Assembly (NCBI GenBank): GCA_045598365.1
Contig: JAZLLV010000056.1
Coordinates: 9,498 to 73,497 of the forward strand
Reading direction: 5' to 3'
DNA length: 64,000 nt
Origin: Lachnospiraceae bacterium
Lineage (GTDB): Bacteria; Bacillota; Clostridia; Lachnospirales; Lachnospiraceae
The translations under genes were made by a program, and so were the position numbers. How positions within the stretch are numbered: the stretch's first letter is position 1; the number at the start of each line of letters is the position of its first letter. Below the pieces are notes generated by a model that had not been told where the DNA came from, searched no databases, and saw only the letters and a program-made list of their open reading frames with translations. Below are positions 863 to 20,223 of this stretch, one piece after another.

Positions 863-2014
863 ATGTATCGAAACATTTATGTTGAGATAGATAATTCCAA
901 AATACTTAGTAACAGCAAACTTTTATGTGAGACCTTTCCTCACAAATACAATATTGCTGTTATAAAGGGTAATGCCTACGGCCATGGCTATGGTATTATC
1001 CCAGCCTTGATTAAAGGCGGAATGAATGCCTTTGCTGTCTCTTCTTTGGATGAGGCAATAGAGGTAAGGAAATACGATAAAGAGCATCCGGTGATAATGC
1101 TTCAGCCGGTTTCGAAAATATATTACGGACTTTGTTCCGCGGAGAACATATCGGTTCTTGTAAATGATACAGACACTCTTGAAGATGTAATTAAAAGTGG
1201 CGAGAGTCTCAAGGTACAGTTTAAGGTAAACTGCGGAATGAACAGGCTTGGCTACCGTGACGGTAGTCTCCTTTCAAGAGATGTGGACAGGGCTATGAAA
1301 TGCGACAAGGTGCAGGTGGAAGGCATTTTCTCACATTTTCATACATCAGGCCTTACAGATAACGAATACGCAGACAATCGCAGGAGATTTGAGGAAATTG
1401 TTAAGGACATAGATTTATCAAAGATTCCCATGGTTCACCTTGATAAGACACAGACAATTCTCCTTCACAAAACTCCGGATTACTGTAACGGAGCACGTTT
1501 CGGACTGTCATTGTACGGATTTCCGTCCATATATCCCTATGATGCTTCACCCAAGGGCAAGCTTCTTACCCTGAGGCGGGATATAAAGAACAGGCTCAAT
1601 CATGTGGAGCCCTCAATTGAAATAAAGAATTACGACTTAAAGCCTGCCTTTGCTTTGAAAACTGAGGTTATAGAGATTAACGTGGTTCCCGCAGGAGAGT
1701 ATGTGGGCTATGGTCTTAAATATAAAACCACAAAGGCAGAAAGAATTGCAGTTATAGATGCAGGATACGCAGACGGAATCGGAAGAAAACGTTCCGGAAC
1801 AAAGGTATGTATCAATGGCAGAAAGTATCCCATTGTGGGAGAAGTCGGCATGGGTATGTGCCAGGTACAGGTGGATGACAATGTAAAAAAGGGAGATGCG
1901 GTTACTGTTTTGGGGGCAGACATTTCCATAAAGGCCATTGCCTCGGCGCTTGAAACCACCACCTATGAAGTATTAACAAATATTAATTCACAGATTCAGA
2001 GAAGATATCTTTGA
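863..2014 (+). CDS. alr: PLP-dependent amino-acid racemase, alanine racemase fold; substrate uncertain
   Basis: PLP-lysine motif [23 protein letters not shown], catalytic Tyr in GEYVGYG, and TTTYEV. Divergent at the ANSAA and GRICMDQ positions. Confidence 0.85.
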   Translation: MYRNIYVEIDNSKILSNSKLLCETFPHKYNIAVIKGNAYGHGYGIIPALIKGGMNAFAVSSLDEAIEVRKYDKEHPVIMLQPVSKIYYGLCSAENISVLVNDTDTLEDVIKSGESLKVQFKVNCGMNRLGYRDGSLLSRDVDRAMKCDKVQVEGIFSHFHTSGLTDNEYADNRRRFEEIVKDIDLSKIPMVHLDKTQTILLHKTPDYCNGARFGLSLYGFPSIYPYDASPKGKLLTLRRDIKNRLNHVEPSIEIKNYDLKPAFALKTEVIEINVVPAGEYVGYGLKYKTTKAERIAVIDAGYADGIGRKRSGTKVCINGRKYPIVGEVGMGMCQVQVDDNVKKGDAVTVLGADISIKAIASALETTTYEVLTNINSQIQRRYL

Positions 2015-3255
2015 TGGAGAAAAGAATAATGACTCACAACGTTGTTTTGCTGGGTTCTGATATAAATGCCTATTATATGGCAAGATGCTACTACGAATTG
2101 TTTAACGAACCCGTTGATATGATAGCCGCAGAGAAGATTCGTTTTACCGAGTTTTCTTCGATTGTAAATATACAGTATCACCCGAATCTTAAGAATGAAG
2201 AAGTCTTTGTAGAGACACTTATTGAGTATGGTAAAGTCCATCTTGATAAGGGAAGGAGTCTGGTTATTCCCTGCCATGATGTATATGTGGATCTTCTTTT
2301 GAGAAAAGCCAACCAGCTTACTTCCTACTTTGTTTTTAACTGTCCTTCTTTTGAAATTGCAGACAGTTTTCTTGATAAGGAAAAATTTTATAAGAAGTAT
2401 GCAGGCAGCAAGCTTAAGTTCGCAAGAACCGAGTATTATGACTGCTCTTTAGAGGAAACAGCGCCCATTCCCGTGGATATGTTTTATCCCCTTATCATTA
2501 AGCCTGGCGACGCTATTGAGTATTACAGACATGTTTTTCCCGGTCAGCCCAAGGTATTTAAGGCAACGACCCCTGATAATGCCGTCAATTTTATCAATAA
2601 GGTTAAGGCATCAGGCTATAAGGGAACTCTTCTTGTGCAGGAATTCATTCAGGGAGATGATACGAATCTTTTTGACTCGATTTTCTATTGCAACAAAAAG
2701 GGAAAGGCTGAGCTTGCCACCTTTGCGCAGATTGGCCTTCAGGAGCATTCTCCTTCAGCCATAGGAAATGCCACTGTTTTAATTAACGGCTACAATCAGT
2801 ATGGCGGAACTGAAGAAATAATAGGGGAACTTAAGGAATTTCTTGAGGACCTTGGCTATACGGGCTTCTGTGAGTTTGACATAAAGTACGACAACAGAGA
2901 CAAGACCTTTAAGGTTATGGAAATCAATCCAAGGCAGGCCCGTTCAAGCTACTATCTTGCGGCTCTTGGTCACAACCTTATTGAGTATCTTTACAATGAT
3001 GTTTTCGAAAATGAAGAGCGTGAGTTTACTCTTCTTAAGGACGAATATCTTCTGACAATGGTTCCAAAATGCATCGTCAGAAAATACATCTTTAACACCG
3101 AATATAAGAAGAAAGCGCTTAAACTCTGGCGCAAACACAAAAAGTGCGATCCCTTAAGATTTTCAAAGGAAAAATCAATTAAGCACAGACTGTATCTTAT
3201 GCTCAGAGCTTACAGATACAGACAGAAGTACAGAAAGTTTTCCAACACCATATAG
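2014..3255 (+). CDS. ATP-grasp carboxylate-amine ligase, D-aspartate ligase (Asl/YxbA) family
   Basis: LLGSDINAYYMAR N-terminus, LIIKP, QEFIQGDD and GYTGFCEFDIKYDNRDKTFKVMEINPRQARSSYY match the Asl family from memory. ATG 2014 overlaps the racemase stop (TGATG); an alternative start at 2029 has a GGAGA SD. Confidence 0.8.
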   Translation: MEKRIMTHNVVLLGSDINAYYMARCYYELFNEPVDMIAAEKIRFTEFSSIVNIQYHPNLKNEEVFVETLIEYGKVHLDKGRSLVIPCHDVYVDLLLRKANQLTSYFVFNCPSFEIADSFLDKEKFYKKYAGSKLKFARTEYYDCSLEETAPIPVDMFYPLIIKPGDAIEYYRHVFPGQPKVFKATTPDNAVNFINKVKASGYKGTLLVQEFIQGDDTNLFDSIFYCNKKGKAELATFAQIGLQEHSPSAIGNATVLINGYNQYGGTEEIIGELKEFLEDLGYTGFCEFDIKYDNRDKTFKVMEINPRQARSSYYLAALGHNLIEYLYNDVFENEEREFTLLKDEYLLTMVPKCIVRKYIFNTEYKKKALKLWRKHKKCDPLRFSKEKSIKHRLYLMLRAYRYRQKYRKFSNTI

Positions 3256-3271
3256 GAAAGAGAGATATTCT

Positions 3272-5137
3272 ATGTGTGGATTTGCAGGTTTTATCGATAA
3301 CCTGAATACAGATAAAAAAAGAACCGTTATTAAGGAGATGAGCGATTCCATTGCCCACAGAGGTCCCGACGGAGAGGGCTTCTATGTGGATGACAGTATT
3401 GCTATGGGATTCAGACGCTTAAGCATCATTGACCTTAATACAGGAGACCAGCCCCTTTATAACGAGGACAAGTCTCTGGTTATTAACTTTAACGGTGAAA
3501 TTTATAACTACAGGGAATTAAGAGAAGATCTTATTTCCAAGGGCCATGTTTTTTATACAACCAGTGATACGGAGTCAATTCTTCATGGATTTGAAGAATA
3601 TGGAGAAAAAATTGTTGAAAAGCTTCGCGGTATGTTTGCCTTTGTTATCTGGAATAAGAATACAGGTGAACTTTTCGGAGCAAGAGACCCCTTTGGAATT
3701 AAGCCGTTTTACTATTACAATACCCCGGAGCTTTTTGCTTACGGCTCTGAAATAAAGGCTTTTCTAAGACACCCGGATTTTAAGAAGGAACTGAACAAGG
3801 ACGCACTTAAAACCTATATGTGCTTCCAGTATTCGGTTCCCACAGATACCTTTTTTAAGAATGTATATAAGTTAAATCCCGGTCATTACTTTTCGTTTAA
3901 GGATGGTGTCTTAAAGACAGAAGAGTACTTTAAGATTGAGTACAGAAACAACGAGGACGATTTAGATACAACAGTTGATAAGATAAACAACATAATGAAG
4001 GAAAGCATCGAATATCACAAAATCAGTGATGTTGAAGTAGGGGCTTTTCTTTCAAGCGGTGTTGATTCAAGCTACATAGTTGCAAATGCCAATGTTGACA
4101 AGGCCTTCACAGTGGGCTTTAAAAGCGATCACTTCGATGAGACAGAGGATGCCCACGCCCTTTGCGAAATACTTGGCATGAAGCATACAAGAAAGCATAT
4201 AACGGCAGACATGTTCTTTGATGCGCTGCCCACTGTTCAGTACCACTCCGATGAACCCCATGCGAATCTTTCCGCTGTGCCGCTTTACTTTCTGGCAAAT
4301 ATGGCGGCAAAGGAGGTTAAGGTAGTTCTTTCCGGTGAGGGTGCGGATGAACTGTTCGGAGGATATTATGAATACGAGACTCCTCCGGAATATGCAAAAT
4401 ACAATAAGATTCCTTTCCCTGTAAGACGCTTCTTAAAAGGCGTTGCGGAGAAGCTTCCCAACATGAAAGGAAGACATTTCCTTATTCGTGCAGGCTCCAC
4501 TTTGGAAGAATCCTACATCGGTCAGGCTTTTATCATGAACAACGAAGAGGCCGACAAGCTTCTAAAGCCCGACTACAGAGGGGGAAAGCTTTACAGCGAA
4601 GTTACTGTTCCTATTTTTGAAAAGGTCAAGGATAAGCCGGACCTTTTGAAGAAGATGTATCTTGATATGAATCTTTGGCTGCCCTATGACATTCTTTTGA
4701 AGGCTGACAAGATGACCATGGCGAATTCCCTGGAGTTAAGAGTTCCCTTCCTTGACAAGGAAGTGTTCAGGGTGAGCGAAGAGGTTCCTTTTAAGTATAT
4801 TATTAAGGATTATATTACCAAATATGCCTTCCGCCAGGCTGCGAATAAGACAATCCCCGAGGAATGGGCAAAGCGCAAGAAATTAGGCTTCCTTGTTCCT
4901 TTCAGAGAATGGCTTAAGGAAGATAAATGGTATGCCAAGGTAAAAGAGCAGTTTACTAAAGATTGGGTAAGCGAATTTTTCGATGTTGATGCAATAGTAC
5001 ATCTTCTTGACGAGCACAAAGCGGGAAAATGGAGCAATCAGAGAAAAATCTACACGATATATTCTTTTTTGATTTGGTATGAAGTATTTTTTATAAACGG
5101 TGCGATTGCACCAAAGGCGCCGGCTACAGAGGCGTAA
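3272..5137 (+). CDS. asnB: Asparagine synthase (glutamine-hydrolysing) family amidotransferase
   Basis: N-terminal nucleophile MCG, HRGPD, RRLSIIDL, FNGEIYNY, LSSGVDSS, LSGEGADELFGGY, SLELRVPFLD. Confidence 0.93.
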   Translation: MCGFAGFIDNLNTDKKRTVIKEMSDSIAHRGPDGEGFYVDDSIAMGFRRLSIIDLNTGDQPLYNEDKSLVINFNGEIYNYRELREDLISKGHVFYTTSDTESILHGFEEYGEKIVEKLRGMFAFVIWNKNTGELFGARDPFGIKPFYYYNTPELFAYGSEIKAFLRHPDFKKELNKDALKTYMCFQYSVPTDTFFKNVYKLNPGHYFSFKDGVLKTEEYFKIEYRNNEDDLDTTVDKINNIMKESIEYHKISDVEVGAFLSSGVDSSYIVANANVDKAFTVGFKSDHFDETEDAHALCEILGMKHTRKHITADMFFDALPTVQYHSDEPHANLSAVPLYFLANMAAKEVKVVLSGEGADELFGGYYEYETPPEYAKYNKIPFPVRRFLKGVAEKLPNMKGRHFLIRAGSTLEESYIGQAFIMNNEEADKLLKPDYRGGKLYSEVTVPIFEKVKDKPDLLKKMYLDMNLWLPYDILLKADKMTMANSLELRVPFLDKEVFRVSEEVPFKYIIKDYITKYAFRQAANKTIPEEWAKRKKLGFLVPFREWLKEDKWYAKVKEQFTKDWVSEFFDVDAIVHLLDEHKAGKWSNQRKIYTIYSFLIWYEVFFINGAIAPKAPATEA

Positions 5138-5150
5138 AAAGGAGACAAGT

Positions 5151-6416
5151 ATGAATAAATCCGTATTTGAAGAAAATGAATCAGTTGTAAGGTCCTACTG
5201 CAGAAAGTACCCTGTTGTGTTTGAAAAAGCAAAGGGCTCATACATTTATGATACCGAGGGAAAGGCATATCTTGACTTCCTTGCAGGCTGCGGTGCCCTT
5301 AACTATGGTCACAACAATGACGAAATCAAGGGAGCGGTTATCGAATACCTTATGCAGGATAACATTACCCATGCAATGGATATGTATACCAGGGCAAAGG
5401 CAGAATTCATTGATACCTTCAAAAACAATATTTTAGATAAAAGCGGACTTCAGTATAAGATTATGTTCTGCGGTTCCACAGGAACAAATGCTGTGGAAGC
5501 AGCGCTTAAGCTTTGCAGAAAGAATAAAAAACGTTCCAACATAGTTGCATTTATGGGTGCGTTCCACGGAATGACCTTAGGAAGCCTTGCACTTACCACC
5601 GACCAGACCAGCAGAGAGGGTGCAGGTGTGTCTCTTGACAATGTGACCTTCATTCCTTTTGAAAACGGCTTCTCCGGCAAGTTTGATTCTTTGGACTATC
5701 TTGAGAATATTCTTCTTGATGATCACTCCGGAATTGAAAAGCCCGCAGCAGTATTCATTGAAACTGTTCAGGCCGAAGGCGGAATTAATGTTGCAAGTGT
5801 TGAATGGCTTAAGCGCCTTGAAAAGCTTTGTCATGACAATGATATTCTTCTCGTGGCTGATGAAATTCAGGTGGGCTGCTCCAGAACAGGAACCTTCTTC
5901 TCCTTTGAAAGAGCAGGAATCAAGCCCGATATGGTTACCCTCAGTAAGTCCATCGGTGGCTATGGATTCCCTATGTCTTTGTTACTTATAAAAGAAGAAC
6001 TTGATATTTGGAAACCTGCGGAGCACAACGGAACCTTCAGAGGAAATCAGGTTGCTTTTGTAGCTGCCAAGAAAGCAATTGAAGTAAATGTAAACAGCAA
6101 TCTTAACGCAGAAGTAAGAAGAAAAGGTGAGCTTGTAAAGGCCTTTGTGGAAAAGAACCTTCTTCCTCTTGATGAAAACATTTCCTTAAGAGGACTTGGC
6201 CTTATCTGGGGTATCGATTTCGGAAAACTTTCAGGCGGCAGCGAAATTGCCCACAGGATAGCTGATAAATGCTTTACAAAGAATATGATAATCGAGCGTG
6301 CCGGAAGAGGTGACTCGGTTGTTAAGATTCTTCCTCCCCTTACCATTACGGATGAAGAACTTACAAAGGGACTTAATATTATTCTTGAATCAACAAAGGA
6401 AGTATTGGGCAGGTAA
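5151..6416 (+). CDS. ectB: Diaminobutyrate--2-oxoglutarate transaminase (EctB/Dat, class III aminotransferase)
   Basis: ESVVRSYCR, GCGALNYGHN, FHGMTLGSL, ETVQAEGG, DEIQVG, PLP-Lys in SKSIGG, EHNGTFRGN. AAGGAG SD before ATG 5151. Confidence 0.9.
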   Translation: MNKSVFEENESVVRSYCRKYPVVFEKAKGSYIYDTEGKAYLDFLAGCGALNYGHNNDEIKGAVIEYLMQDNITHAMDMYTRAKAEFIDTFKNNILDKSGLQYKIMFCGSTGTNAVEAALKLCRKNKKRSNIVAFMGAFHGMTLGSLALTTDQTSREGAGVSLDNVTFIPFENGFSGKFDSLDYLENILLDDHSGIEKPAAVFIETVQAEGGINVASVEWLKRLEKLCHDNDILLVADEIQVGCSRTGTFFSFERAGIKPDMVTLSKSIGGYGFPMSLLLIKEELDIWKPAEHNGTFRGNQVAFVAAKKAIEVNVNSNLNAEVRRKGELVKAFVEKNLLPLDENISLRGLGLIWGIDFGKLSGGSEIAHRIADKCFTKNMIIERAGRGDSVVKILPPLTITDEELTKGLNIILESTKEVLGR

Positions 6417-11627: not shown

Positions 11628-14501
11628 ATGAGTGAAGTTAAGATGCGTCCCAAGTCTGAGATGATCAGAGTCAGAGGGGCAAATGAACACAACTTAAAAA
11701 GCCTTAATGTGGATATTCCCAGAAACGAACTGGTTGTTATCACCGGTTTGTCCGGTTCGGGAAAATCTTCATTGGCTTTTGATACCATATATGCGGAGGG
11801 TCAGAGACGATACATGGAGTCTCTTTCTTCCTACGCAAGACAGTTCCTCGGTGTTATGGAAAAGCCTAATGTAGAGAGAATAGAAGGTCTTTCGCCGGCT
11901 ATTTCAATCGACCAGAAGTCCACAAACCGAAACCCCAGATCTACTGTGGGAACCGTTACGGAAATCTATGATTACTTCAGACTTCTCTACGCAAGAATCG
12001 GAATTGTTCACTGTCCGCAGTGCGGAAGAGAGATAAACAGACAGAGCGTTGATCAGATTGTGGACAGAATAATGGCTTTGCCTGCAGGTACGAGAATTCA
12101 GCTTCTTGCTCCGGTTGTTCGCGGCAAGAAGGGTATGCATGAAAAAACTCTTGATAAGGCAAAACGTTCAGGTTATGTTCGTGCAATCATAGATGGTAAT
12201 ATGTATGAGCTTTCCGAGGAAATATCCCTTGATAAAAATATTAAGCACAATATTGATATAGTTGTGGACCGTCTGGTTATCAAAGAGGATATGCAGAAAA
12301 GACTTACCGATTCTGTCGAAACGGTTATAGACCTTGCGGAAGGTCTTCTTTCTGTGGATGTTATTGGCGGAGAACCTCTTACATTTTCCACAAATTTTGC
12401 CTGTCCGGATTGTGAAATAAGCATACCGGAAATAGAAACCAGAAGCTTCTCCTTTAACAATCCATTCGGCGCCTGCCCGGTTTGTGCCGGTCTTGGTTAT
12501 AAGATGGAATTTTCAAAGGAACTTATACTGCCTAACGATAATCTTTCCCTTAATGAGGGATGTATAGAAATAAACGGTCTTAAATCCATAGGTGATAAAA
12601 AGAGCTGGATGCATGCCATAATGGATGCAATGTGCGAAAAGTACAAATTCAGTATGGACACTCCTTTTAAGGACTATCCGGCAGAAATAAAGGACCTTTT
12701 ATGGAATGGTAACCATGGAGAAAAGTTCATCATTCACTACGAAAGCCAGCGTGGAAGGGGCGCCTACGAGGTAACCTTTGAAGGTTTCCTGGAAATCTGC
12801 AGGCAGAGATATAAGGAAACCTTCTCAGAATCCGCAAAAGCTGAATATGAAAAGTTCATGTCAATAACTCCCTGTGAAGCCTGCAAGGGAATGCGTTTGA
12901 GAAAAGAATCACTGGCCGTTACGGTGGGTGACATGAATATATACGAGATTACCAATCTCTCCATTACAAAGCTCCTTAATTACCTTGATAATCTTAATCT
13001 TACGGAGCAGCAGAGATTTATCGGTGATCAGATACTTAAGCAGATAAATGCAAGAGTTTCCTTCCTTATGGATGTGGGATTATCATACCTTACCCTTGCA
13101 AGAGCCACAGCATCTCTTTCCGGTGGTGAGGCTCAGCGTATACGACTTGCTACCCAGATTGGTTCAGGACTTGTGGGAGTTACATATATCCTTGACGAGC
13201 CTTCAATCGGCTTACATCAGAGAGATAACGACATGCTTCTTAAGACACTTAAGCACTTAAGAGACTTAGGCAATACAGTGCTTGTGGTGGAGCATGATGA
13301 GGATACCATGTTTGCAGCGGACCACATTGTGGACATAGGTCCCGGCGCCGGTATTAAAGGCGGCTGTCTTGTGGCTGAAGGTACTGCTGAGGATATAATG
13401 GCGAACCCCGATTCAATAACAGGTCAGTACTTAAGCGGCAAGAAGTTCATACCTGTTCCTGATAAGCGAATTGCCCCCTCGGGCTATATGACCATCAAGG
13501 GTGCCAGAGAGAACAATCTTAAGAACATAGATGTAAAGATTCCTCTTGGCATAATGACCTGTATTACAGGCGTGTCCGGCTCGGGAAAGAGTTCACTTAC
13601 TAATGAGATTTTGTATAAGTATCTTGCGAAAACATTTAACAGAGCTCATACAATACCCGGTGATTTTGATGAAATCGAAGGCGTTGAACAGCTTGATAAG
13701 GTAATAGACATAGATCAGTCTCCCATAGGACGTACTCCCAGATCCAATCCCGCCACTTATACAGGTGTGTTTGATCAGATTCGTGATCTTTTCGCCCTGA
13801 CCAAAGAGGCAAAAGAACGTGGTTACAAGAAGGGAAGATTCTCCTTTAACGTTAAGGGCGGCAGATGTGAAGCCTGCCAGGGTGACGGTATCATAAAGAT
13901 TGAAATGCATTTCCTTCCGGATGTATATGTTCCCTGCGAAGTGTGCGGAGGAAAACGATACAACAGAGAAACCCTGGAATGTCTTTATAAGGGCAAGAAC
14001 ATTTTTGACGTTCTGGATATGCCGGTTGAAGAGGCGGTAACCTTCTTTGAAAATGTTCTTTCCATCAGAGATAAGATCAAAACCCTTAATGAGGTTGGTC
14101 TTGGCTATATTAAGTTAGGACAGCCCTCCACCGAGCTTTCCGGAGGTGAAGCTCAGAGAGTTAAGCTTGCAACAGAGCTCAGTAAGCGTTCCACAGGTAA
14201 AACAATCTATATCCTGGACGAACCCACCACCGGTCTGCATTTTGCGGATGTACATAAGCTTTCGGAAATACTAAGAAGGCTTGTTGAGGGAGGCAATACG
14301 GTAATAGTAATCGAGCACAATCTGGATATTATTAAGACCGCTGACTACATTATCGATATGGGTCCCGAAGGTGGTGACGGCGGCGGAACTGTAGTTGCTT
14401 ATGGCACTCCCGAGGAAGTGGCCAAGTGCGAAAAATCCTACACCGGCAAGTACATAAAGAAGATGCTTGATAAGGACAAAGAACTTAAGGGCCAAGATTA
14501 A
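11628..14501 (+). CDS. uvrA: Excinuclease ABC subunit A
   Basis: [17 protein letters not shown], two ABC signature motifs LSGGEAQR, zinc-finger CxxC pairs, GVSGSGKSS. Confidence 0.98.
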
Positions 14502-14535
14502 TAATAAACATTTAATAAAAAAGTGTATGTAATTG

Positions 14536-14564
14536 TTGACGATTGAAATTTGATAAAGTATCCT
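14536..14564 (+). promoter_or_regulatory. Candidate sigmaA promoter of the lar-cbi operon
   Basis: TTGACG-N17-TATCCT. Confidence 0.6.
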
Positions 14565-14569
14565 TTATC

Positions 14570-14692
14570 TATCGGCCGACCGAAGTCGGCATTGTGGCTC
14601 TGAAGAGTCGAAACTTTTGCGTTAATTTACTATGTATACACATGAAGGTATACGATGTCCATGAAGGATAATCGTATGCCTTTTTTATTTTC
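14570..14692 (+). promoter_or_regulatory. Structured 5' leader with intrinsic terminator (candidate attenuator/riboswitch)
   Basis: Hairpin GCCGAC-CGAA-GTCGGC and further hairpins. Terminator stem ATACGAT (14650-14656) / ATCGTAT (14671-14677) is followed by TTTTTTATTTT. A competing GTATAC/GTATAC stem (14634-14653) overlaps its 5' arm. Confidence 0.55.
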
Positions 14693-14712
14693 AGGCAAAC
14701 GGATGGTTATAT

Positions 14713-15459
14713 ATGAAACTGGAAGAATTCTTTGCAAAATACAGAAAAGTTGCCATTGCTTTTTCGGGAGGAGTGGATTCCGCATATCTTTTGTATGCGG
14801 CGGTAAAAGCCGGAGCGGATGTTAAAGCCTATTATGTTAAATCTGCTTTTCAGCCGGAATTTGAGTATTCCGATGCCGTAAAACTTGCAGAACAGATCGG
14901 CGCCAAAATGAAAACTCTGACTGTGGACATTCTGCAAAATGAAGAAGTGAAAGCTAACCCGAAAGACAGATGCTATTACTGCAAAAAGACTATTTTTTCA
15001 ACAATAGTATATGAGGCCGCAAAGGATGGTTATGAAGTGCTGTTGGATGGAACCAATGCCTCGGATGAGGAAGGCGACCGCCCCGGCATGAGAGCATTGA
15101 GAGAACTGACTGTTTTCTCACCCCTCAGAATTTGCGGACTTACAAAGGATGAGATACGAAGACTGTCCAAAGAAGCCGGTCTGTTTACCTGGAACAAGCC
15201 GGCATATGCCTGTCTTGCCACAAGAATTCCTACGGGCTGTGCCATCAGTAAGGATATTCTTTCTGCAACAGAAAATGCAGAGGATTACCTGTTTTCTTTA
15301 GGCTTTTCCGATTTCAGGGTCAGATATCTTAACGGAGCTGCAAAACTCCAGCTTAGAGAATCCGATTTTGAACTGATGACAAAATACAGAAAAGAAATAG
15401 TTGAGGAACTGACAAAATACTATTCAGATGTTTTTGTGGATTTGGAGGTAAGAGGATGA
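14713..15459 (+). CDS. larE: Nickel-pincer nucleotide cofactor sulfur transferase LarE
   Basis: PP-loop AFSGGVDS, RCYYCK, DGTNASD, RPG, ACLATRIP, DFRVR. Confidence 0.92.
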   Translation: MKLEEFFAKYRKVAIAFSGGVDSAYLLYAAVKAGADVKAYYVKSAFQPEFEYSDAVKLAEQIGAKMKTLTVDILQNEEVKANPKDRCYYCKKTIFSTIVYEAAKDGYEVLLDGTNASDEEGDRPGMRALRELTVFSPLRICGLTKDEIRRLSKEAGLFTWNKPAYACLATRIPTGCAISKDILSATENAEDYLFSLGFSDFRVRYLNGAAKLQLRESDFELMTKYRKEIVEELTKYYSDVFVDLEVRG

Positions 15460-16211
15460 ACAGCGATATAAGAGTATTGCTTGAACAGGTTAAGGAAGGC
15501 TCGGTTTCCGTGGATGAAGCCTTGCTTTCCATAAAAAAGGAACCCTTTGAGGATATAGGCTATGCAAAAGTGGACTTTCACAGAGGCATCAGACAGGGTG
15601 CGCCGGAAGTTATATACGGAGCCGGAAAAACACCGGAACAGATTATTGGTATCGTCGGCAGTATGCTTAAAAATAAGCAGGAAACCATACTGATTACAAG
15701 AATGTCCAAAGAAGCTGCGGATATTGTATCTCAGAGCTACGAACTTGATTATCGTGAAAATGCAAGAATCGGAATAGTAGGTAAACTTCCCAAGCCCACA
15801 GGAATAGGAAAAATTGTGGTTGCCACCGGAGGAACTTCAGATATACCAGTGGCGGAGGAAGCAGCTCTTACTGCCGAAGCCCATGGTAATGAAGTGGTAA
15901 GGCTCTATGATGTGGGAGTAGCAGGATTGCACAGACTGCTTGCACATATGGATGAGATAATGAGTGCATCGGTAATAATTGCAATCGCAGGAATGGAAGG
16001 TGCTCTTGCAAGTGTAATCGGAGGGCTTGCGGATTGCCCCGTTATTGCGGTTCCCACAAGCGTAGGCTACGGCGCTTCTTTCAACGGATTGTCAGCACTT
16101 TTATCAATGCTTAACTCCTGCGCCAGCGGAGTGTCGGTGGTTAATATTGACAACGGTTTCGGGGCCGGATATCAGGCCAGTATGATTAATCATATGGAGG
16201 TTAAGAAATGA
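15456..16211 (+). CDS. larB: Nickel-pincer cofactor biosynthesis protein LarB (PurE-like fold)
   Basis: AKVDFHR, GAPEVIYG, TGGTSDIPVAEEA, DVGVAGLHRL, AGMEGAL, AVPTSVGYG, VVNIDNGFGAG. Confidence 0.95.
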   Translation: MNSDIRVLLEQVKEGSVSVDEALLSIKKEPFEDIGYAKVDFHRGIRQGAPEVIYGAGKTPEQIIGIVGSMLKNKQETILITRMSKEAADIVSQSYELDYRENARIGIVGKLPKPTGIGKIVVATGGTSDIPVAEEAALTAEAHGNEVVRLYDVGVAGLHRLLAHMDEIMSASVIIAIAGMEGALASVIGGLADCPVIAVPTSVGYGASFNGLSALLSMLNSCASGVSVVNIDNGFGAGYQASMINHMEVKK

Positions 16212-17557
16212 AAACACTTTATATAGATTGCGGAATGGGTGCAGCCGGAGACATGCTCACTGCGGCGCTCCTTGAACTTGTTCCGGATAAACAGGCTTTT
16301 GTTGAGGAGTTCATGAAGCTGGGGATTCCGGGAGTAACTTTTGAGGCTGAAGCTTCTGCAAAATGCGGAATTCTGGGAACTCATGTAACCGTAAAGGTTA
16401 ATGGCGAGGAAGAAGAAAGCCACGACCACCATCATGACCACAATCATGACCATGAGCACGGACACGAACATGATCATGACCATGAGCATGACCACGAGCA
16501 TGACCATGAGCATGAGCACGAGCATGACCATCACCACGAGCATGGCCATGAGCATGAGCACGAACATGACCATGAGCATGACCATCATCATGAGCACGAG
16601 CATGACCATCACCATGGTCACCATCACAGCAGTATGCACGATATTGAGCATATTGTTAACGGACATCTCAACGTTTCCTCAAAGGTTAAGGAGGATGTCC
16701 TTGCGGTATATAAGTTAATCGCAGAGGCTGAAAGCGTTGCCCATGGCGTTCCCGTAAGTGAAATACATTTCCATGAAGTAGGTACCATGGACGCTGTTGC
16801 GGACATAACCGCCGTTTGTATGCTGATGGAAAAGATTTCGCCGGATAAGGTTGTGGTTTCACCTATACATGTGGGAAGCGGTCAGGTCAAGTGTGCGCAC
16901 GGAATTCTCCCCGTGCCTGCGCCTGCAACTGCGTATATTCTTAAGGATGCCCCTATATACGGAGGCAGCATCCGCGGCGAACTTTGTACTCCTACAGGTG
17001 CAGCTTTGCTAAAGCATTTTGCCACCAAGTTTGGCGATATGCCGGTTATGAAGGTTTCAAATATCGGATATGGAATGGGCAAAAAGGATTTTGAAATTGC
17101 AAACTGCGTAAGAGTTATGCTGGGCGAGTCTGATATCAAGTCGGATACAGTCTGCGAACTTTGCTGCAATGTGGACGATATGACGGGTGAGCAGATAGGT
17201 TTTGCCATGGAAAAACTATTCGAGGCAGGTGCACTTGATGTTTACACCACCAATATCGGTATGAAAAAGTCCCGTCCCGGTATTCTGATTTCAGTTATGT
17301 GTAAAGAAGACGACCGTGAGAAAATGCTGAAACTTATTTTCAGACACACGAGTACGTTAGGGGTAAGAGAAAGCTTTTCCGGAAGATATACCATGGAGCG
17401 CTCCATTGATAAGGTGGAAACCGTATTTGGTGATGTAAGAGTAAAACGTTCTTCGGGATACGGAGAAACAAGAGAAAAATTTGAATATGAGGATCTGGCA
17501 CGCATAGCATCTGAAAATGATATGTCAATATCGCAGGTTCTTAATAAAATAAAATGA
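16208..17557 (+). CDS. larC: Nickel insertase LarC (full length, with long His-rich insert)
   Basis: GAAGDM, HFHEVG, HGILPVPAPAT, ELCTPTGAALL, GYGMG, NVDDMTGE, MKKSRPG, STLGVR, KFEYED. Confidence 0.93.
   Translation: MKTLYIDCGMGAAGDMLTAALLELVPDKQAFVEEFMKLGIPGVTFEAEASAKCGILGTHVTVKVNGEEEESHDHHHDHNHDHEHGHEHDHDHEHDHEHDHEHEHEHDHHHEHGHEHEHEHDHEHDHHHEHEHDHHHGHHHSSMHDIEHIVNGHLNVSSKVKEDVLAVYKLIAEAESVAHGVPVSEIHFHEVGTMDAVADITAVCMLMEKISPDKVVVSPIHVGSGQVKCAHGILPVPAPATAYILKDAPIYGGSIRGELCTPTGAALLKHFATKFGDMPVMKVSNIGYGMGKKDFEIANCVRVMLGESDIKSDTVCELCCNVDDMTGEQIGFAMEKLFEAGALDVYTTNIGMKKSRPGILISVMCKEDDREKMLKLIFRHTSTLGVRESFSGRYTMERSIDKVETVFGDVRVKRSSGYGETREKFEYEDLARIASENDMSISQVLNKIK
16421..16627 (+). repeat. His-rich (H-E/D)n coding repeat in larC
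   Basis: 69 codons with approximately 6-nt periodicity (CAY-GAN); I counted 40 His of 69 residues, with His at every odd position. Confidence 0.95.
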
Positions 17558-17576
17558 TAATAGGGGGTATATTACC

Positions 17577-18635
17577 ATGCATATGGCAGATGCTTTATTG
17601 GCGCCTGCAATGGCAGCCACGATGTATGTGGCATCAACAACAACAGCAGGATTTTCAATCCACAGTTTAAGAAAGGATGAGAATACTGCAAAACTTCCCA
17701 CAATGGCGGTTGCATCAGCGCTTGTTTTTGCGGGACAGATGATTAACTATACCATACCGGGAACCGGTTCATCGGGTCACCTTTGCGGAGGCTTTATGCT
17801 TTCAGCTCTTTTGGGACCTCAGGCAGGTTTTCTTTCAATGGTTGTTATTCTTGCAATCCAGTGTCTTTTCTTTGCAGACGGAGGCTTAATGGCCCTTGGA
17901 GCAAACTGTTGGAATATGGCATTTTACGGGTGCTTTGTGGGCTATTACCTGATTTGGAAACCGATTGTTCAGGGAAAGCTTTTCTCAAAAATGGAAAATG
18001 CAAAGGCAATGAGAATCAAGATTGTACTTGCTTCTATCATTGGATGCGTATTGACACTTCAGTTAGGTGCTTTTTCAGTTGTTCTTGAAACAACCTTCTC
18101 CGGTATCACAGAACTTCCCTTCGGTGCTTTTGTGGCTCTTATGCAGCCCATTCACCTTGCAATCGGTCTTGTTGAAGGCTTAGTTACCGCAGCAGTTCTT
18201 ATCTTTGTATATGAATCCAGACCGGAACTTCTTCAGGGAACCGTAAAAACCGAAGAAGAGAAGAAGGCACGTCTTTCCTTAAAAGTAACCATGGTTGTGA
18301 TTGCGGTTGTTGCTCTCCTTGTGGGTGGTGTTTTCTCACACTTTGCAAGTTCAAATCCGGACGGTCTTGAATGGTCACTGTTTGGCAACGAAGAAGAAGG
18401 TTACAATGCCAATATGGCACTTGATGAGGAAGATTACGGTATTTCAAGTGCTGTTGCCGATACGGCTGCTTTAATTCAGGAGAAAACAGCATTCTTACCT
18501 GACTATGCTTTCGCAGAAAGCGAAAGCCCTCTCGGAACCACCGTATCCGGTGTTGCAGGCTCGGTAATGGTTGCGGCTCTGGCTGCAGTTATCTGCTTTG
18601 TGGGTGGATTCTTCAGAAAGAAGAAAAAAATATAA
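17577..18635 (+). CDS. cbiM: ECF Ni/Co transporter substrate component, CbiM/NikM fused to a PDGLE (NikN-like) domain
   Basis: Metal-binding N-terminus MHMADALL, GTGSSGHLCGG, QCLFFADGGL, SSNPDGLEWS. Confidence 0.88.
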   Translation: MHMADALLAPAMAATMYVASTTTAGFSIHSLRKDENTAKLPTMAVASALVFAGQMINYTIPGTGSSGHLCGGFMLSALLGPQAGFLSMVVILAIQCLFFADGGLMALGANCWNMAFYGCFVGYYLIWKPIVQGKLFSKMENAKAMRIKIVLASIIGCVLTLQLGAFSVVLETTFSGITELPFGAFVALMQPIHLAIGLVEGLVTAAVLIFVYESRPELLQGTVKTEEEKKARLSLKVTMVVIAVVALLVGGVFSHFASSNPDGLEWSLFGNEEEGYNANMALDEEDYGISSAVADTAALIQEKTAFLPDYAFAESESPLGTTVSGVAGSVMVAALAAVICFVGGFFRKKKKI

Positions 18636-18642
18636 TTTTTTG

Positions 18643-18669
18643 TCGGAGCGGCAGCATATGCCGCTCCGA
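18643..18669 (+). other. Strong intergenic hairpin between cbiM and cbiQ
   Basis: Perfect 11-bp stem TCGGAGCGGCA / TGCCGCTCCGA, 5-nt loop, only a weak T tail. Confidence 0.7.
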
Positions 18670-18682
18670 TTATTAGGAATAT

Positions 18683-19495
18683 ATGTCGGATATTAATAAT
18701 TCTGCCATGGAAATTCGCCGAATGGACGAATATGCGTTGATGGATTCGCCCATTCACAGACTTAATTCCCTGGCAAAACTTTTAGTGACAATTGCATATA
18801 TTTTCATTGTGGCTTCTTTTGACAAATACGATTTTTCGGGGTTGTTTGCAATGATTCTCTATCCGGTTACTATGTTTACTGTGGCCGGATTTTCTTTCAG
18901 GACCTGCTTTGTAAAGTTTAAGTATGTGTTACCGCTTGTGCTTATGGTTGGCATATTTAATCCTTTTCTTGACAGAGAGCCGGCGTTTGCTGTGGGAACC
19001 TTTGTCATTACAGGCGGGATGATTTCCATGGTCACTCTTATGCTGAAAGGTATCCTTTGTGTCATGGCTTCATTCATATTTGCGGCTACCACACCGGTGG
19101 ATTCAATCTGCAAAGCACTGAGAAAGCTGCATGTACCGGGCATTTTCGTGAACCTGTTTCTTCTTACCTGCAGATACATCTATGTTCTGGTGGATGAGGT
19201 TTCGGTGATGACCACAGCCTACAAACTCAGAGCACCGGGGCAAAAGGGCATAAGATTTGATGCCTGGGGGTCTTTTTTGGGACAGCTTCTTTTAAGAAGC
19301 ATGGACAGAGCTGAGGAATTGTATTCCTCCATGTGCCTGAGAGGATTTACCGGAGAATATGAGTATGCTGACTCCGGAAAGATGAAACTTAAGGACTGGA
19401 TTTTCCTGATAGTGGTGATTTCTTTATCAGTGTATTTAAGACGATATAATATTTTTGCTGCCCTTGGCAGTCTCGGAGTGCAAAGACGGATATGA
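18683..19495 (+). CDS. cbiQ: ECF transporter T component CbiQ/NikQ
   Basis: SPIHRL...AKLL, RYIYVLVDE, LLLRSMDRAEELYSSMCLRGF. Confidence 0.88.
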   Translation: MSDINNSAMEIRRMDEYALMDSPIHRLNSLAKLLVTIAYIFIVASFDKYDFSGLFAMILYPVTMFTVAGFSFRTCFVKFKYVLPLVLMVGIFNPFLDREPAFAVGTFVITGGMISMVTLMLKGILCVMASFIFAATTPVDSICKALRKLHVPGIFVNLFLLTCRYIYVLVDEVSVMTTAYKLRAPGQKGIRFDAWGSFLGQLLLRSMDRAEELYSSMCLRGFTGEYEYADSGKMKLKDWIFLIVVISLSVYLRRYNIFAALGSLGVQRRI

Positions 19496-20223
19496 TAGAT
19501 TTTGTTGATGTTTCTTTTGAATATGAACCCGGAAAAAAGGCTCTGAACAACATTTCCGTAAAAATAGAAAAAGGCGAAAAGGTGGGGCTCATCGGTGCAA
19601 ACGGAGCCGGAAAATCCACATTTTTCAAGGCTCTTCTGGGGCTTGTCAATTACAAGGGAATCGTTCTTGTGGGTGATGTACCTGTGTCAAAAGAAAACCT
19701 TAAGGAAATTCGCAAAAAAGTGGGATACGTTCTTCAAAATTCCGATAATCAGATGTTCATGCCCACGGTTTTTGAGGACATTGTTTTTGCTCCGCTAAAC
19801 TACGGACTTGGGAAGAAGGAAGCAGAAGAAAGAGCAGATAACATTTTGAAAAAACTTGGAATAGAGGACTTAAAACATCGTCACAATCATAAGTTGTCCG
19901 GAGGTGAAAAACGTATGGCTGCCATAGCCACGGTTCTGGCAATGAACCCGGAGGTAATACTTATGGATGAGCCTTCTTCTGCACTTGATCCCTATAACAG
20001 AAGACAGGTTATTAATGTCATTAGGTCCCTTGATAACACCTGTATAATAGCTTCACACGATCTTGATATGATACTTGATACCTGCGATAAAGTAATTCTT
20101 TTGAACAAGGGCGGTGTTGTTGTAACGGGAACCTGTGAAGAGGTGCTTAAGGATGCGGATCTTTTAGAGAAAAACAGGCTGGAGCTGCCACTCTCCTACA
20201 GGGCATTTGGTAAATATTATTGA
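19492..20223 (+). CDS. cbiO: ECF transporter ATPase CbiO/NikO
   Basis: Walker A GANGAGKS, Q-loop, LSGGEKR, DEPSSALD, SHD. Confidence 0.88.
   Translation: MIDFVDVSFEYEPGKKALNNISVKIEKGEKVGLIGANGAGKSTFFKALLGLVNYKGIVLVGDVPVSKENLKEIRKKVGYVLQNSDNQMFMPTVFEDIVFAPLNYGLGKKEAEERADNILKKLGIEDLKHRHNHKLSGGEKRMAAIATVLAMNPEVILMDEPSSALDPYNRRQVINVIRSLDNTCIIASHDLDMILDTCDKVILLNKGGVVVTGTCEEVLKDADLLEKNRLELPLSYRAFGKYY

What the first reader, a model, noticed from the sequence alone, without database searches (positions are those of the whole stretch)
14536..14712. Candidate new metal-responsive attenuator/riboswitch ahead of larEBC-cbiMQO
Seen: a good promoter, then a leader of about 140 nt. It contains GCCGAC-CGAA-GTCGGC, alternative GGCTC/GAGTC and AGAGT-CGAA-ACTTT hairpins, and a GTATAC/GTATAC stem (14634-14653) that is mutually exclusive with a terminator stem (14648-14679) followed by T6ATTTT. 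CATGAAGG occurs twice. A mini-ORF MYTHEGIRCP (14632-14664, no clear SD) overlaps the switch. Established: Ni/Co transport genes in Clostridia can be controlled by NiCo or cobalamin riboswitches, but I do not recognise either consensus here. Inference: an undescribed cis-regulator sensing Ni, the cofactor or a precursor.
Basis: partly seen in the sequence, partly recalled or inferred. Interest (0 to 1): 0.66.

Follow-up and report, generated by a model that had tools for sequence, protein, structure and literature searches.

The report
Conserved attenuator RNA before nickel-cofactor genes
The stretch in front of larE is one copy of a widespread RNA leader, absent from Rfam and not found in the papers searched, that switches between a terminator and an antiterminator hairpin and controls nickel uptake and nickel-pincer cofactor genes in gut and rumen Clostridia; what it senses is still unknown.

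Summary
Window 14536-14712 has a sigma-70-like promoter, two small hairpins (H1, H2), a GUAUAC/GUAUAC antiterminator (H3) and a strong terminator with a U run 22 nt before larE.

It is not a chance structure. Covariance models find the same architecture in front of 41 of 80 larE loci from diverse Clostridia. They also find it ahead of nikA-type ABC transporters, ECF S-components and two unnamed small membrane proteins. H1, H2, H3, the terminator and its inner hairpin H4 all covary. All four hairpins present the same loop, C-(A/U)GAA-G.

Rfam 15 has no match, and I found no paper on it.

The terminator (-21 kcal/mol) far outweighs the antiterminator state (-9), so read-through needs a factor.

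I favour a protein, with the lar-type clade of DUF3842 as the candidate:
- Its gene lies directly upstream of the leader in at least 20 loci.
- It is present in about 60 of 62 genomes that carry the motif.
- Its sister clade pairs with the nickel-binding protein CooT.

A direct Ni2+ or cofactor riboswitch is not excluded (about 0.3). The mini-ORF, the second "alternative" hairpin and the hammerhead-like match are not conserved.

The parts
14536..14564 (+). Sigma-70-like promoter: TTGACG, 17 nt, TATCCT. Predicted start near 14571.
   Evidence: 9 of 12 matches; consensus match only. In 22 of 48 homologous leaders a TTGAY-N16-18-YANNNT site ends 10-39 nt (mode 15) before the first GAAG loop.
14575..14590 (+). 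H1: GCCGAC-CGAA-GUCGGC. In the family it is a stem closed by C-G with a pentaloop A-N-G-A-A; here it is a CGAA tetraloop variant.
   Evidence: -10.5 kcal/mol. Covariation on A3: all 5 pairs show double changes. R3 scores 25.4 bits at 14571-14612, the only match in the window with E below 0.01; the window row was in the training set.
14595..14610 (+). H2: UGGCUC-UGAA-GAGUCG. Stem closed by C-G with a tetraloop (A/U)GAA.
   Evidence: -5.6 kcal/mol. On A3 5 of 6 pairs covary, and the closing C is present in 32 of 32 sequences.
14611..14633 (+). Spacer, not conserved in sequence; 23 nt here, up to about 130 nt in other loci.
14634..14653 (+). H3, the antiterminator: A strand GUAUAC (14634-14639), loop ACAUGAAG (14640-14647), B strand GUAUAC (14648-14653).
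   Evidence: On A4, 88% of cells pair. Pair 7-18 is GC in 23 and AU in 17 sequences with no mismatch, and 5 of 7 pairs show double changes. Energy -5.5 kcal/mol.
14645..14682 (+). Intrinsic terminator stem: AAGGUAUACGAU (14645-14656) pairs with AUCGUAUGCCUU (14671-14682). It shares strand B with H3, so the two exclude each other.
   Evidence: -21.2 kcal/mol against -8.7 for the H3+H4 state. On A4, 91% of cells pair and 15 of 18 pairs show double changes. R1 scores 68.3 bits at 14632-14691.
14657..14669 (+). H4: GUCC-AUGAA-GGAU, nested in the terminator. Family consensus is a stem closed by C-G with a tetraloop (A/U)GAA.
14681..14691 (+). U run of the terminator (UUUUUUAUUUU).
   Evidence: Columns 53-63 of A4 are T-rich in all 40 sequences.
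14713..20223 (+). Controlled operon: larE (14713-15459), larB (15456-16211), larC (16208-17557), cbiM with a PDGLE domain (17577-18635), cbiQ (18683-19495), cbiO (19492-20223).
   Evidence: ORFs, Pfam, NCBIfam.

Best explanation
The region is the 5' leader of the larE-larB-larC-cbiMQO mRNA and works as a factor-dependent transcription attenuator.

Proposed course of events:
1. RNA polymerase starts near 14571 and first makes two constitutive hairpins, H1 and H2.
2. It then makes strand A, a purine-rich loop and strand B.
3. A and B can form a weak 6-bp antiterminator hairpin, H3.
4. Once hairpin H4 and strand C are made, the far more stable B:C terminator displaces A. Transcription then stops at the U run, about 22 nt before larE.
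5. Read-through therefore needs something that holds H3 together.

All four hairpins display the same apical element, C-(A/U)GAA-G. In H3 that element is also the 5' base of the terminator (GAAGG). I infer that a multivalent trans-acting factor recognises these loops. H1-H2 would act as a constant loading site, and binding at H3-H4 would lock the antiterminator and keep GAAGG away from CCUUC.

I think the factor is most likely a protein. The leading candidate is the lar-type clade of the small Rossmann-like protein DUF3842. Its RNA binding would be switched off by nickel or by the finished nickel-pincer cofactor. Nickel uptake and cofactor synthesis would then be expressed only when they are needed.

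Shown: the two alternative structures, their conservation and covariation, the regulon, and the linkage to DUF3842.

Inferred: the transcription start, that termination really occurs, which factor acts, and the sign and identity of the signal.
For: Family and structure:
- R1 finds the core upstream of 41 of 80 larE loci.
- It finds one copy in the own genome, 7 convincing hits in 400 Clostridia genomes and 13 convincing hits in 401 genomes of the order.
- H1/H2: 92.8% of cells pair, against 26-40% when the partner is slid; covariation score 0.80 against 0.10-0.15.
- Antiterminator. Terminator plus H4.
- An H1-H2 model searched on its own lands 30-90 nt upstream of the core in G056, G167, G070, G263 and G201. 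In G171 it finds a full leader upstream of larE that R1 had missed. Together these are 6 of its 7 best hits.
- Strict C-N(1-2)GAA-G hairpins occur in 39 of 48 leaders, against 0.8 expected from shuffles.

Default is off: terminator -21.2 against -8.7 kcal/mol.

Regulon: larE/B/C, cbiMQO, nikA-type ABC systems, ECF S-components, two small membrane proteins and an FmdE-domain protein.

NikR is absent from 14 of 16 motif genomes, including this one.

DUF3842:
- It lies directly upstream of the leader and outside the regulated unit in 12 of 41 loci. Nine further genomes show the same, eight on the same strand and G712 divergent.
- It is present in 27 of 29 motif genomes where it is not adjacent, in 7 of 7, and in 13 of 13 convincing motif genomes tested.
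- For comparison it is in 14 of 21 larE genomes without a motif hit and in 125 of 399 Clostridia genomes.
- The family splits with 100/100 support into a CooT-linked clade and a lar/motif-linked clade. The copy in the window's own genome falls in the second.
- The sister clade sits next to the nickel-binding CooT. In two genomes it lies next to nickel transporters preceded by terminators whose 5' strand reads CCAUGAAGG.
Against:
- DUF3842 has no recognisable RNA-binding fold. The AlphaFold model (pLDDT 83) gives only weak Rossmann/flavodoxin-like matches with TM 0.45-0.54.
- DUF3842 also tracks lar genes where no motif was found (14 of 21; L039, L066, L051). It could therefore simply be a cofactor-pathway protein.
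- In the window's own genome the DUF3842 gene is on another contig, next to glmS.
- Two motif-bearing MAGs lack it.
- Repeated simple hairpins can also be a riboswitch architecture, as in guanidine-II.
- The promoter call rests on a consensus match that is no better than chance in this window.
Confidence: 0.5

Rival explanations
1. A true riboswitch. The RNA itself binds Ni2+ (or Co2+), the nickel-pincer nucleotide or a precursor such as NaAD, P2CMN or P2TMN. The purine-rich (A/U)GAA loops of H1-H4 would form the pocket or pockets, for example by ligand- or metal-mediated loop-loop contacts, and so stabilise H3.
For: - Conserved, covarying structure with a classical expression platform.
- The regulon combines metal uptake, cofactor synthesis and a possible salvage transporter plus kinase. 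The cobalamin and Moco riboswitch regulons look like this (own knowledge).
- NikR is missing from 14 of 16 genomes.
- No single regulator is proven.
- Guanidine-II shows that two small hairpins with identical loops can be a riboswitch, and NiCo shows that purine N7 atoms can bind Ni/Co (own knowledge; review PMC11672702).
Against: - Conservation is limited to apical loops and closing pairs.
- There is no conserved junction or core.
- The spacer between the hairpin pairs varies from 23 to about 130 nt and is unconserved.
- The energetic default is termination. A ligand that stabilises H3 would turn the genes on, which is the wrong sign for an end product or for nickel acting on its own high-affinity uptake.
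- A candidate protein partner co-occurs almost perfectly.
Confidence: 0.3
2. Protein-mediated antitermination by a regulator other than DUF3842, for example an ANTAR response regulator, a PRD or HutP-like antiterminator, or one of the Lar proteins acting on its own mRNA.
For: - Tandem hairpins, one of them overlapping the terminator, resemble ANTAR and RAT targets.
- ANTAR genes occur in 12 of 16 motif genomes, including this one.
Against: - ANTAR is absent from 4 motif genomes, three of them 97-100% complete (G056, G070, G167).
- The loops are (A/U)GAA tetraloops or pentaloops, not hexaloops with A1 and G4 (the ANTAR rule is from my own knowledge).
- CooT is absent from all 7 motif genomes tested.
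- Lar proteins are not encoded downstream of the nikA-type and ECF S-component copies as far as those loci were read (1.5 to about 6 kb), though they may lie elsewhere in those genomes.
Confidence: 0.1
3. No regulation. The hairpin plus U run is just the uvrA terminator, or a constitutive terminator, and the other hairpins are incidental.
For: - uvrA ends 145 nt upstream.
- The promoter match is weak.
Against: - The whole architecture follows the downstream lar/nik genes whatever gene lies upstream.
- The antiterminator covaries with the terminator.
- Only about 22 nt separate the U run from larE, which leaves no room for another promoter.
Confidence: 0.03
4. A DNA operator. The GTATAC / GTATAC / GTATGC boxes and the GCCGAC-N4-GTCGGC palindrome would be binding sites of a NikR-like repressor.
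For: The boxes are palindromic, and the half-sites recall the E. coli NikR box GTATGA-N16-TCATAC (own knowledge).
Against: - NikR is absent from 14 of 16 genomes.
- The boxes change by compensatory substitutions rather than staying fixed.
- A strand-specific U run always follows.
- The nested H4 covaries.
- The boxes lie 60-200 nt downstream of the promoter-like sites.
Confidence: 0.02

Closest known systems
Protein-stabilised antiterminators of Firmicutes: RAT hairpins bound by LicT/SacY/GlcT, the hut leader bound by HutP, pyr leaders bound by PyrR
   Same: - A weak hairpin shares a strand with a strong intrinsic terminator and needs a bound factor to win.
- The regulator gene often sits just upstream of the controlled leader, as hutP does.
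- The regulator is a small protein whose RNA binding is controlled by a metabolite.
   Different: - The RNA element is four hairpins with C-(A/U)GAA-G loops, not a RAT, UAG repeats or a PyrR box.
- The candidate protein, DUF3842, belongs to none of those families and has not been shown to bind RNA.
- The regulon is nickel and the nickel-pincer cofactor.
ANTAR dual-hairpin targets (EutV, NasR, AmiR)
   Same: Tandem small hairpins with matching loops, one of them competing with a terminator.
   Different: - Loop size and sequence differ: (A/U)GAA tetraloops or pentaloops closed by C-G, against hexaloops with A1 and G4.
- There are two hairpin pairs rather than one.
- ANTAR genes are missing from 4 of 16 motif genomes.
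Cobalamin (RF00174) and Moco (RF01055) riboswitches
   Same: The regulon logic is alike: one RNA element ahead of metal uptake, cofactor biosynthesis and possible salvage genes.
   Different: - No sequence or structure match.
- Those are large single aptamers that switch genes off on binding the cofactor.
- Here the default is off, and direct binding is unproven.
NiCo (czcD) riboswitch, RF02683
   Same: A metal-related RNA leader with a terminator platform in anaerobic Firmicutes.
   Different: - NiCo is a four-way junction ahead of efflux genes and turns them on at metal excess.
- No match here.
- This leader precedes uptake and cofactor synthesis genes.
Guanidine-II (mini-ykkC) riboswitch
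   Same: It is built from small hairpins with identical conserved tetraloops and a variable linker.
   Different: - The loops are ACGR, there are two hairpins, control is translational, and the genes concern guanidine export.
- The (A/U)GAA loops here cannot form the C-G loop-loop pairs of that class.

Membership tests
Terminator/antiterminator transcription attenuator | Intrinsic terminator (G+C-containing stem plus U run) between the promoter and the first gene | tested here: met
   Stem 14645-14682 at -21.2 kcal/mol, U run 14681-14691, larE at 14713. Conserved in 40 aligned leaders.
Terminator/antiterminator transcription attenuator | A mutually exclusive alternative helix that uses one terminator strand and is kept by evolution | tested here: met
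   A:B helix: 88% of cells pair, 5 of 7 pairs show double changes, and pair 7-18 is GC in 23 and AU in 17 sequences.
Terminator/antiterminator transcription attenuator | Condition-dependent termination and read-through in vivo or in vitro | not testable with these tools
No transcript data were available.
Riboswitch (any class) | Conserved structured RNA with covariation upstream of functionally related genes | tested here: met
Riboswitch (any class) | Compact aptamer with conserved core or junction nucleotides | tested here: inconclusive
   Conserved bases are confined to apical loops and the A/B/C strands. The spacer of 23 to about 130 nt is unconserved.
Riboswitch (any class) | Direct, protein-free binding of a small ligand | not testable with these tools
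   Needs in-line probing, ITC or in vitro transcription.
NiCo (RF02683) and cobalamin (RF00174) riboswitches | Match to the Rfam covariance model | tested here: not met
   No gathering-level match in the 64-kb window. Neither family appears at E <= 10 in 14480-14730.
ANTAR dual-hairpin target | Two hairpins with hexaloops carrying A at position 1 and G at position 4 (rule from my own knowledge) | tested here: not met
   The loops are A-N-GAA pentaloops and (A/U)GAA tetraloops closed by C-G.
ANTAR dual-hairpin target | An ANTAR-domain protein in every genome that has the RNA | tested here: not met
   PF03861 is absent from G056, G070, G167 and G702, that is 4 of 16 genomes.
Hammerhead ribozyme type III (RF00008) | Core CUGANGA...GAAA with stems I, II and III, and a score at or above gathering | tested here: not met
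   20.4 bits against a gathering score of 48.5. Stem II is reduced to one unpaired base and stem I is mispaired.
Guanidine-II riboswitch | Two hairpins with ACGR tetraloops | tested here: not met
   The loops are (A/U)GAA. No Rfam match.
NikR operator (DNA) | A NikR gene in the genome and sequence-fixed inverted half-sites near the promoter | tested here: not met
   PF08753 is absent from 14 of 16 motif genomes, including this one. The boxes covary instead of staying fixed.
Leader-peptide attenuation | A conserved short ORF with start codon and regulatory codons overlapping the switch | tested here: not met
   The ATG at 14632 is present in a minority of the 40 aligned leaders, and loop indels shift the frame.

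The most novel reading that the evidence does not exclude
The leader and the lar-type DUF3842 protein form a previously unknown two-part sensor. DUF3842 would be a small Rossmann-like protein with a GQGGGIG loop and an invariant Cys. It would bind the nickel-pincer nucleotide (or Ni), and in its free form clamp four C-(A/U)GAA-G hairpin loops to antiterminate nickel uptake, cofactor synthesis and cofactor salvage genes. Its sister clade would do the same together with the nickel-binding protein CooT at CCAUGAAGG terminators ahead of nik genes. This would be the first regulator known to sense the nickel-pincer cofactor, and a new family of RNA-binding antiterminators.
Probability: 0.35. Interest if true: 0.85.

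Novelty: new variant of a known kind. Interest (0 to 1): 0.75.

Why it matters
Regulation of the nickel-pincer nucleotide pathway is known only for Lactobacillus plantarum, where the DNA-binding activator LarR acts. The 2024 metallostasis review I searched lists NiCo/czcD, which controls efflux, as the only Ni/Co-sensing riboswitch class.

This leader gives three things:
- a defined RNA of about 120 nt that is ready to test;
- a regulon that points to new nickel or cofactor transporters, namely two unnamed small membrane proteins and an ECF S-component with a kinase-like partner;
- a candidate function for DUF3842, which is present in about a third of Clostridia genomes.

The outcome is new whichever sensor is right. 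Either it is a new riboswitch class for Ni or the cofactor, or it is a new ligand-controlled antiterminator protein. It would also help to annotate nickel-dependent metabolism in gut and rumen anaerobes.

Tried and rejected
- **BLAST of the leader against 60 related genomes:** found nothing alignable. Same-genus larE genes lie in other contexts without the leader. The family became visible only through larE loci of more distant Clostridia.
- **Rfam:** no family matches. The weak Hammerhead_3 match is an accident of CUGAAGAG...CGAAAC.
- **Mini-ORF and leader peptide:** not conserved.
- **Second "alternative" hairpin AGAGU-CGAA-ACUUU:** not conserved.
- **NikR operator idea:** the NikR gene is mostly absent.
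- **ANTAR:** wrong loops, and the gene is absent from 4 of 16 genomes.
- **CooT as the partner:** absent from all 7 motif genomes tested.
- **Alternative expression platforms for H1-H2:** none found. The weaker R3-only hits that were inspected lie in coding sequence.
- **DUF3842 against solved structures:** nothing by sequence. By fold, only generic Rossmann/flavodoxin-like matches.
- **Papers:** no hit linking a riboswitch to lar genes or the nickel-pincer cofactor. DUF3842 occurs in a single unrelated paper.

Full report
**1. What is in the window**

uvrA ends at 14501. An operon follows: larE (14713-15459), larB, larC, a cbiM gene carrying a PDGLE domain, cbiQ and cbiO, ending at 20223.

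The 211-nt gap holds these features:
- a sigma-70-like site, TTGACG-17-TATCCT, at 14536-14564 (9 of 12 matches, no better than shuffles);
- hairpin H1, GCCGAC-CGAA-GUCGGC, 14575-14590;
- hairpin H2, UGGCUC-UGAA-GAGUCG, 14595-14610;
- a 23-nt spacer;
- GUAUAC (strand A, 14634-14639), the loop ACAUGAAG, and GUAUAC (strand B, 14648-14653);
- a nested hairpin H4, GUCC-AUGAA-GGAU, 14657-14669;
- strand C, AUCGUAUGCCUU, 14671-14682;
- the run U6AU4, ending at 14691.

B:C plus H4 is a -21.2 kcal/mol terminator. The A:B plus H4 state is worth only -8.7 kcal/mol. The whole leader folds better than shuffles (z = -3.5).

**2. Known families**

Rfam 15 has no gathering-level match in the whole window. In 14480-14730 with relaxed thresholds only junk appears. 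The best is Hammerhead_3 at 20.4 bits against a gathering score of 48.5, with no stem II. That match comes from CUGAAGAG...CGAAAC and is a chance resemblance.

**3. Conservation**

The leader is not alignable by BLAST in 60 related genomes. Same-genus larE genes lie in other contexts.

Eighty larE loci from other Clostridia (LarE 61-68% identical) showed short shared words at the same distance from larE. By eye they showed the same architecture.

A covariance model of the core (R1) gives:
- hits upstream of 41 of the 80 loci, plus three clear variants seen by eye (L053, L075, L096);
- exactly one copy in the window's own genome;
- 7 convincing copies in 400 Clostridia genomes.

A second model (R2) finds 13 convincing copies in 401 genomes of the same order.

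**4. Structure and covariation**

H1 and H2, on alignment A3 of 32 sequences:
- 92.8% of cells pair, against 26-40% when the partner is slid;
- 109 cells show changes on both sides;
- the covariation score is 0.80, against 0.10-0.15 for the slid controls.

I chose these sequences partly by looking for hairpins, so I ran two independent controls:
- Strict C-N(1-2)GAA-G hairpins with at least 4 bp occur in 39 of 48 leaders, against 0.8 expected after shuffling.
- A model of H1-H2 alone (R3), run blind over 400 genomes, places 6 of its 7 best hits 30-90 nt upstream of a core element. One of these is a leader that R1 had missed.

Antiterminator A:B, on the 40-sequence alignment A4:
- 88% of cells pair;
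- pair 7-18 is G-C in 23 sequences and A-U in 17, with no mismatch;
- 5 of 7 pairs show double changes.

Terminator plus H4: 91% of cells pair, and 15 of 18 pairs show double changes. Both mutually exclusive structures are therefore under selection, which is the signature of an attenuator.

**5. The repeated loop**

The conserved bases are not in junctions but in the hairpin tips:
- H1: C-A-N-G-A-A-G. A 29, G 30, A 30, A 31 of 32 sequences.
- H2: C-(A/U)-G-A-A-G. C 32 of 32, G 30, A 30, A 30, G 31.
- H3 loop, ending ...N-G-A-A-G-G: 38, 35, 40, 37 and 39 of 40.
- H4: C-(A/U)-G-A-A-G: 29-35 of 40.

In H3 the GAAGG is also the 5' foot of the terminator, where it pairs with CCUU(C). This explains why a terminator stem is conserved in sequence.

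The spacer between H2 and A is unconserved; it is 23 nt here and up to about 130 nt in other loci.

In 22 of 48 leaders a good sigma-70 site ends 10-39 nt before the first GAAG loop, most often 15 nt, as here. H1 is thus probably the 5' end of the transcript.

**6. Regulon**

Immediately downstream of the leader lie:
- larE-larB-larC, in this window together with cbiMQO;
- two unnamed membrane proteins followed by lar genes. One is about 137 aa (MACFLVPAAEA...FEHVWHGE) and one is 104 aa (MTLLTT...WLVDAIFEY);
- an FmdE-domain protein followed by larE;
- a nikA/opp-type binding protein with its ABC partners (G056 and three congeners);
- an ECF S-component in two unrelated genomes, in G413 followed by a protein with a nucleoside/nucleotide-kinase-like C-terminus.

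Every copy that could be assigned concerns nickel supply or the nickel-pincer cofactor. NikR is absent from 14 of 16 motif genomes, including this one.

**7. What senses the signal**

The energetics make termination the default, so a factor must stabilise H3. Four near-identical loops arranged as two tandem pairs (H1-H2 and H3-H4), joined by a free spacer, look like binding sites for a multimeric factor.

The candidates compare as follows.

| Candidate | Result |
|---|---|
| ANTAR | Wrong loop type; gene absent from 4 of 16 genomes |
| CooT | Absent from 7 of 7 motif genomes |
| DUF3842 (PF12953) | About 135 aa; consistently linked to the leader, see below |

Evidence on DUF3842:
- Its gene lies directly upstream of the leader, before the leader's promoter and so outside the regulated unit, in 12 of 41 loci.
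- The same holds in nine further genomes: G070, G167, G413, G531, G658, G702, G806, G813 and G861 on the same strand, as counted with G712 divergent.
- It is present elsewhere in the genome in 27 of 29 motif genomes that lack an adjacent copy.
- It is present in 7 of 7 class representatives and 13 of 13 convincing motif genomes tested. The two genomes without it there are the two hits I had judged spurious.
- The background is 125 of 399 Clostridia genomes, and 14 of 21 larE genomes without a motif hit.
- A maximum-likelihood tree splits the family, with 100/100 support, into a clade whose genes sit next to cooT and a clade holding all 21 motif-adjacent copies, 3 lar-adjacent copies and this genome's own copy. 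That copy lies next to glmS on another contig.
- In two genomes of the CooT clade, the DUF3842-cooT pair is followed by a hairpin with an AUGAA loop, a terminator whose 5' strand reads CCAUGAAGG, and then nikA or nikM. This is the same recognition word in a different platform.

The AlphaFold model (pLDDT 83) is a small Rossmann/flavodoxin-like domain. It has a GQGGGIG loop after strand 1 and an invariant Cys, and gives only weak fold matches. That suits binding of a nucleotide-like ligand but says nothing about RNA.

A 2026 paper notes that NAD-type folds next to lar genes can bind the pincer cofactor (PMC13524815). It does not mention this family.

**8. Verdict on mechanism**

| Claim | My estimate |
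|---|---|
| This is a conserved terminator/antiterminator leader controlling lar/nik genes | about 0.9 |
| The sensor is a protein | about 0.55 |
| That protein is DUF3842 | about 0.35-0.4 |
| The RNA binds Ni2+ or the cofactor directly | about 0.3 |

The sign of control argues mildly for a protein. A ligand that stabilised H3 would switch on high-affinity nickel uptake at high nickel, or switch on cofactor synthesis at high cofactor. A protein can instead be released by its ligand.

The weak points are these:
- There are no transcript data.
- DUF3842 has no demonstrated RNA binding.
- DUF3842 also follows lar genes where no leader was found, so it may simply be a pathway protein.

**9. Novelty**

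There is no Rfam family. No paper in the library links a riboswitch or attenuator to lar genes or the nickel-pincer cofactor. The 2024 metallostasis review lists NiCo/czcD, which controls efflux, as the only Ni/Co-sensing riboswitch class.

Two earlier notes of this scan describe the same kind of leader before lar operons in other genomes. They agree with this reading but are not independent evidence.

Noticed in passing
L115:997-1422(-) and L115:686-1000(-); also L062:1707-2120 and 2123-2437; L023:955-1272; L021 upstream of 888: Two conserved small membrane proteins without any Pfam or NCBIfam match. One is about 137 aa (MACFLVPAAEA...LAFEHVWHGE...) and one is 104 aa (MTLLTTVFAAI...WLVDAIFEY...). 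They sit between the leader and larE in many loci. The 104-aa one also precedes larE in same-genus genomes that lack the leader. They are candidates for a new nickel or cofactor-precursor transporter.
   Followed up: partly
L134-L145 (DUF3842 loci of other Clostridia): In 9 of 12 loci DUF3842 is followed at once by a CooT-family gene (MCEANVY..., PF10133). The DUF3842 family splits into a CooT-linked clade and a lar-linked clade with 100/100 support.
   Followed up: partly
L134 (G447) and L137 (G429), about 600-800 nt downstream of the DUF3842 start: After DUF3842-cooT comes a hairpin with an AUGAA loop and a terminator whose 5' strand reads CCAUGAAGG, followed by a nikA-like lipoprotein (L134) or nikM/cbiM (L137). 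This may be a sister attenuator that uses the same word.
   Followed up: no
L149 (G413:C64) 5605-6147(-) and 4521-5621(-); L158 (G658) 1585-2136(+): The leader also precedes an ECF transporter S-component of unknown substrate. In G413 this is followed by a 366-aa protein whose C-terminus resembles nucleoside/nucleotide kinases. It may be a salvage route for a pyridinium nucleoside or the cofactor.
   Followed up: partly
L086:1946-2485, also L095 and L106: A 179-aa FmdE-domain protein with a C4 zinc-finger tail lies between the leader and larE in Intestinimonas and Ruminococcaceae loci.
   Followed up: no
window 17577-18635: The cbiM gene of the operon carries a C-terminal PDGLE domain (CbiN-like region), so the M and N parts of the transporter are fused.
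   Followed up: no
G184:C1:3952585-3952977 (L141): One of the two DUF3842 copies in this genome has an in-frame TGA inside the conserved PLNRCN motif, at the position of the invariant Cys. It is either a pseudogene or a possible selenocysteine.
   Followed up: no
L146 (G000:C3) 2420-2839: The window genome's own DUF3842 gene starts 13 nt after the glmS stop and ends 2 nt before an MBOAT/DltB-like membrane protein gene, so it is probably co-transcribed with them.
   Followed up: no
L037, L038, L046, L047, L049, L067 and others, upstream of larE: In many larE loci without a nearby leader, larE directly follows the last permease gene of an opp/nik-type ABC operon. A leader, if present, would lie beyond the 2.5-kb flank.
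   Followed up: no
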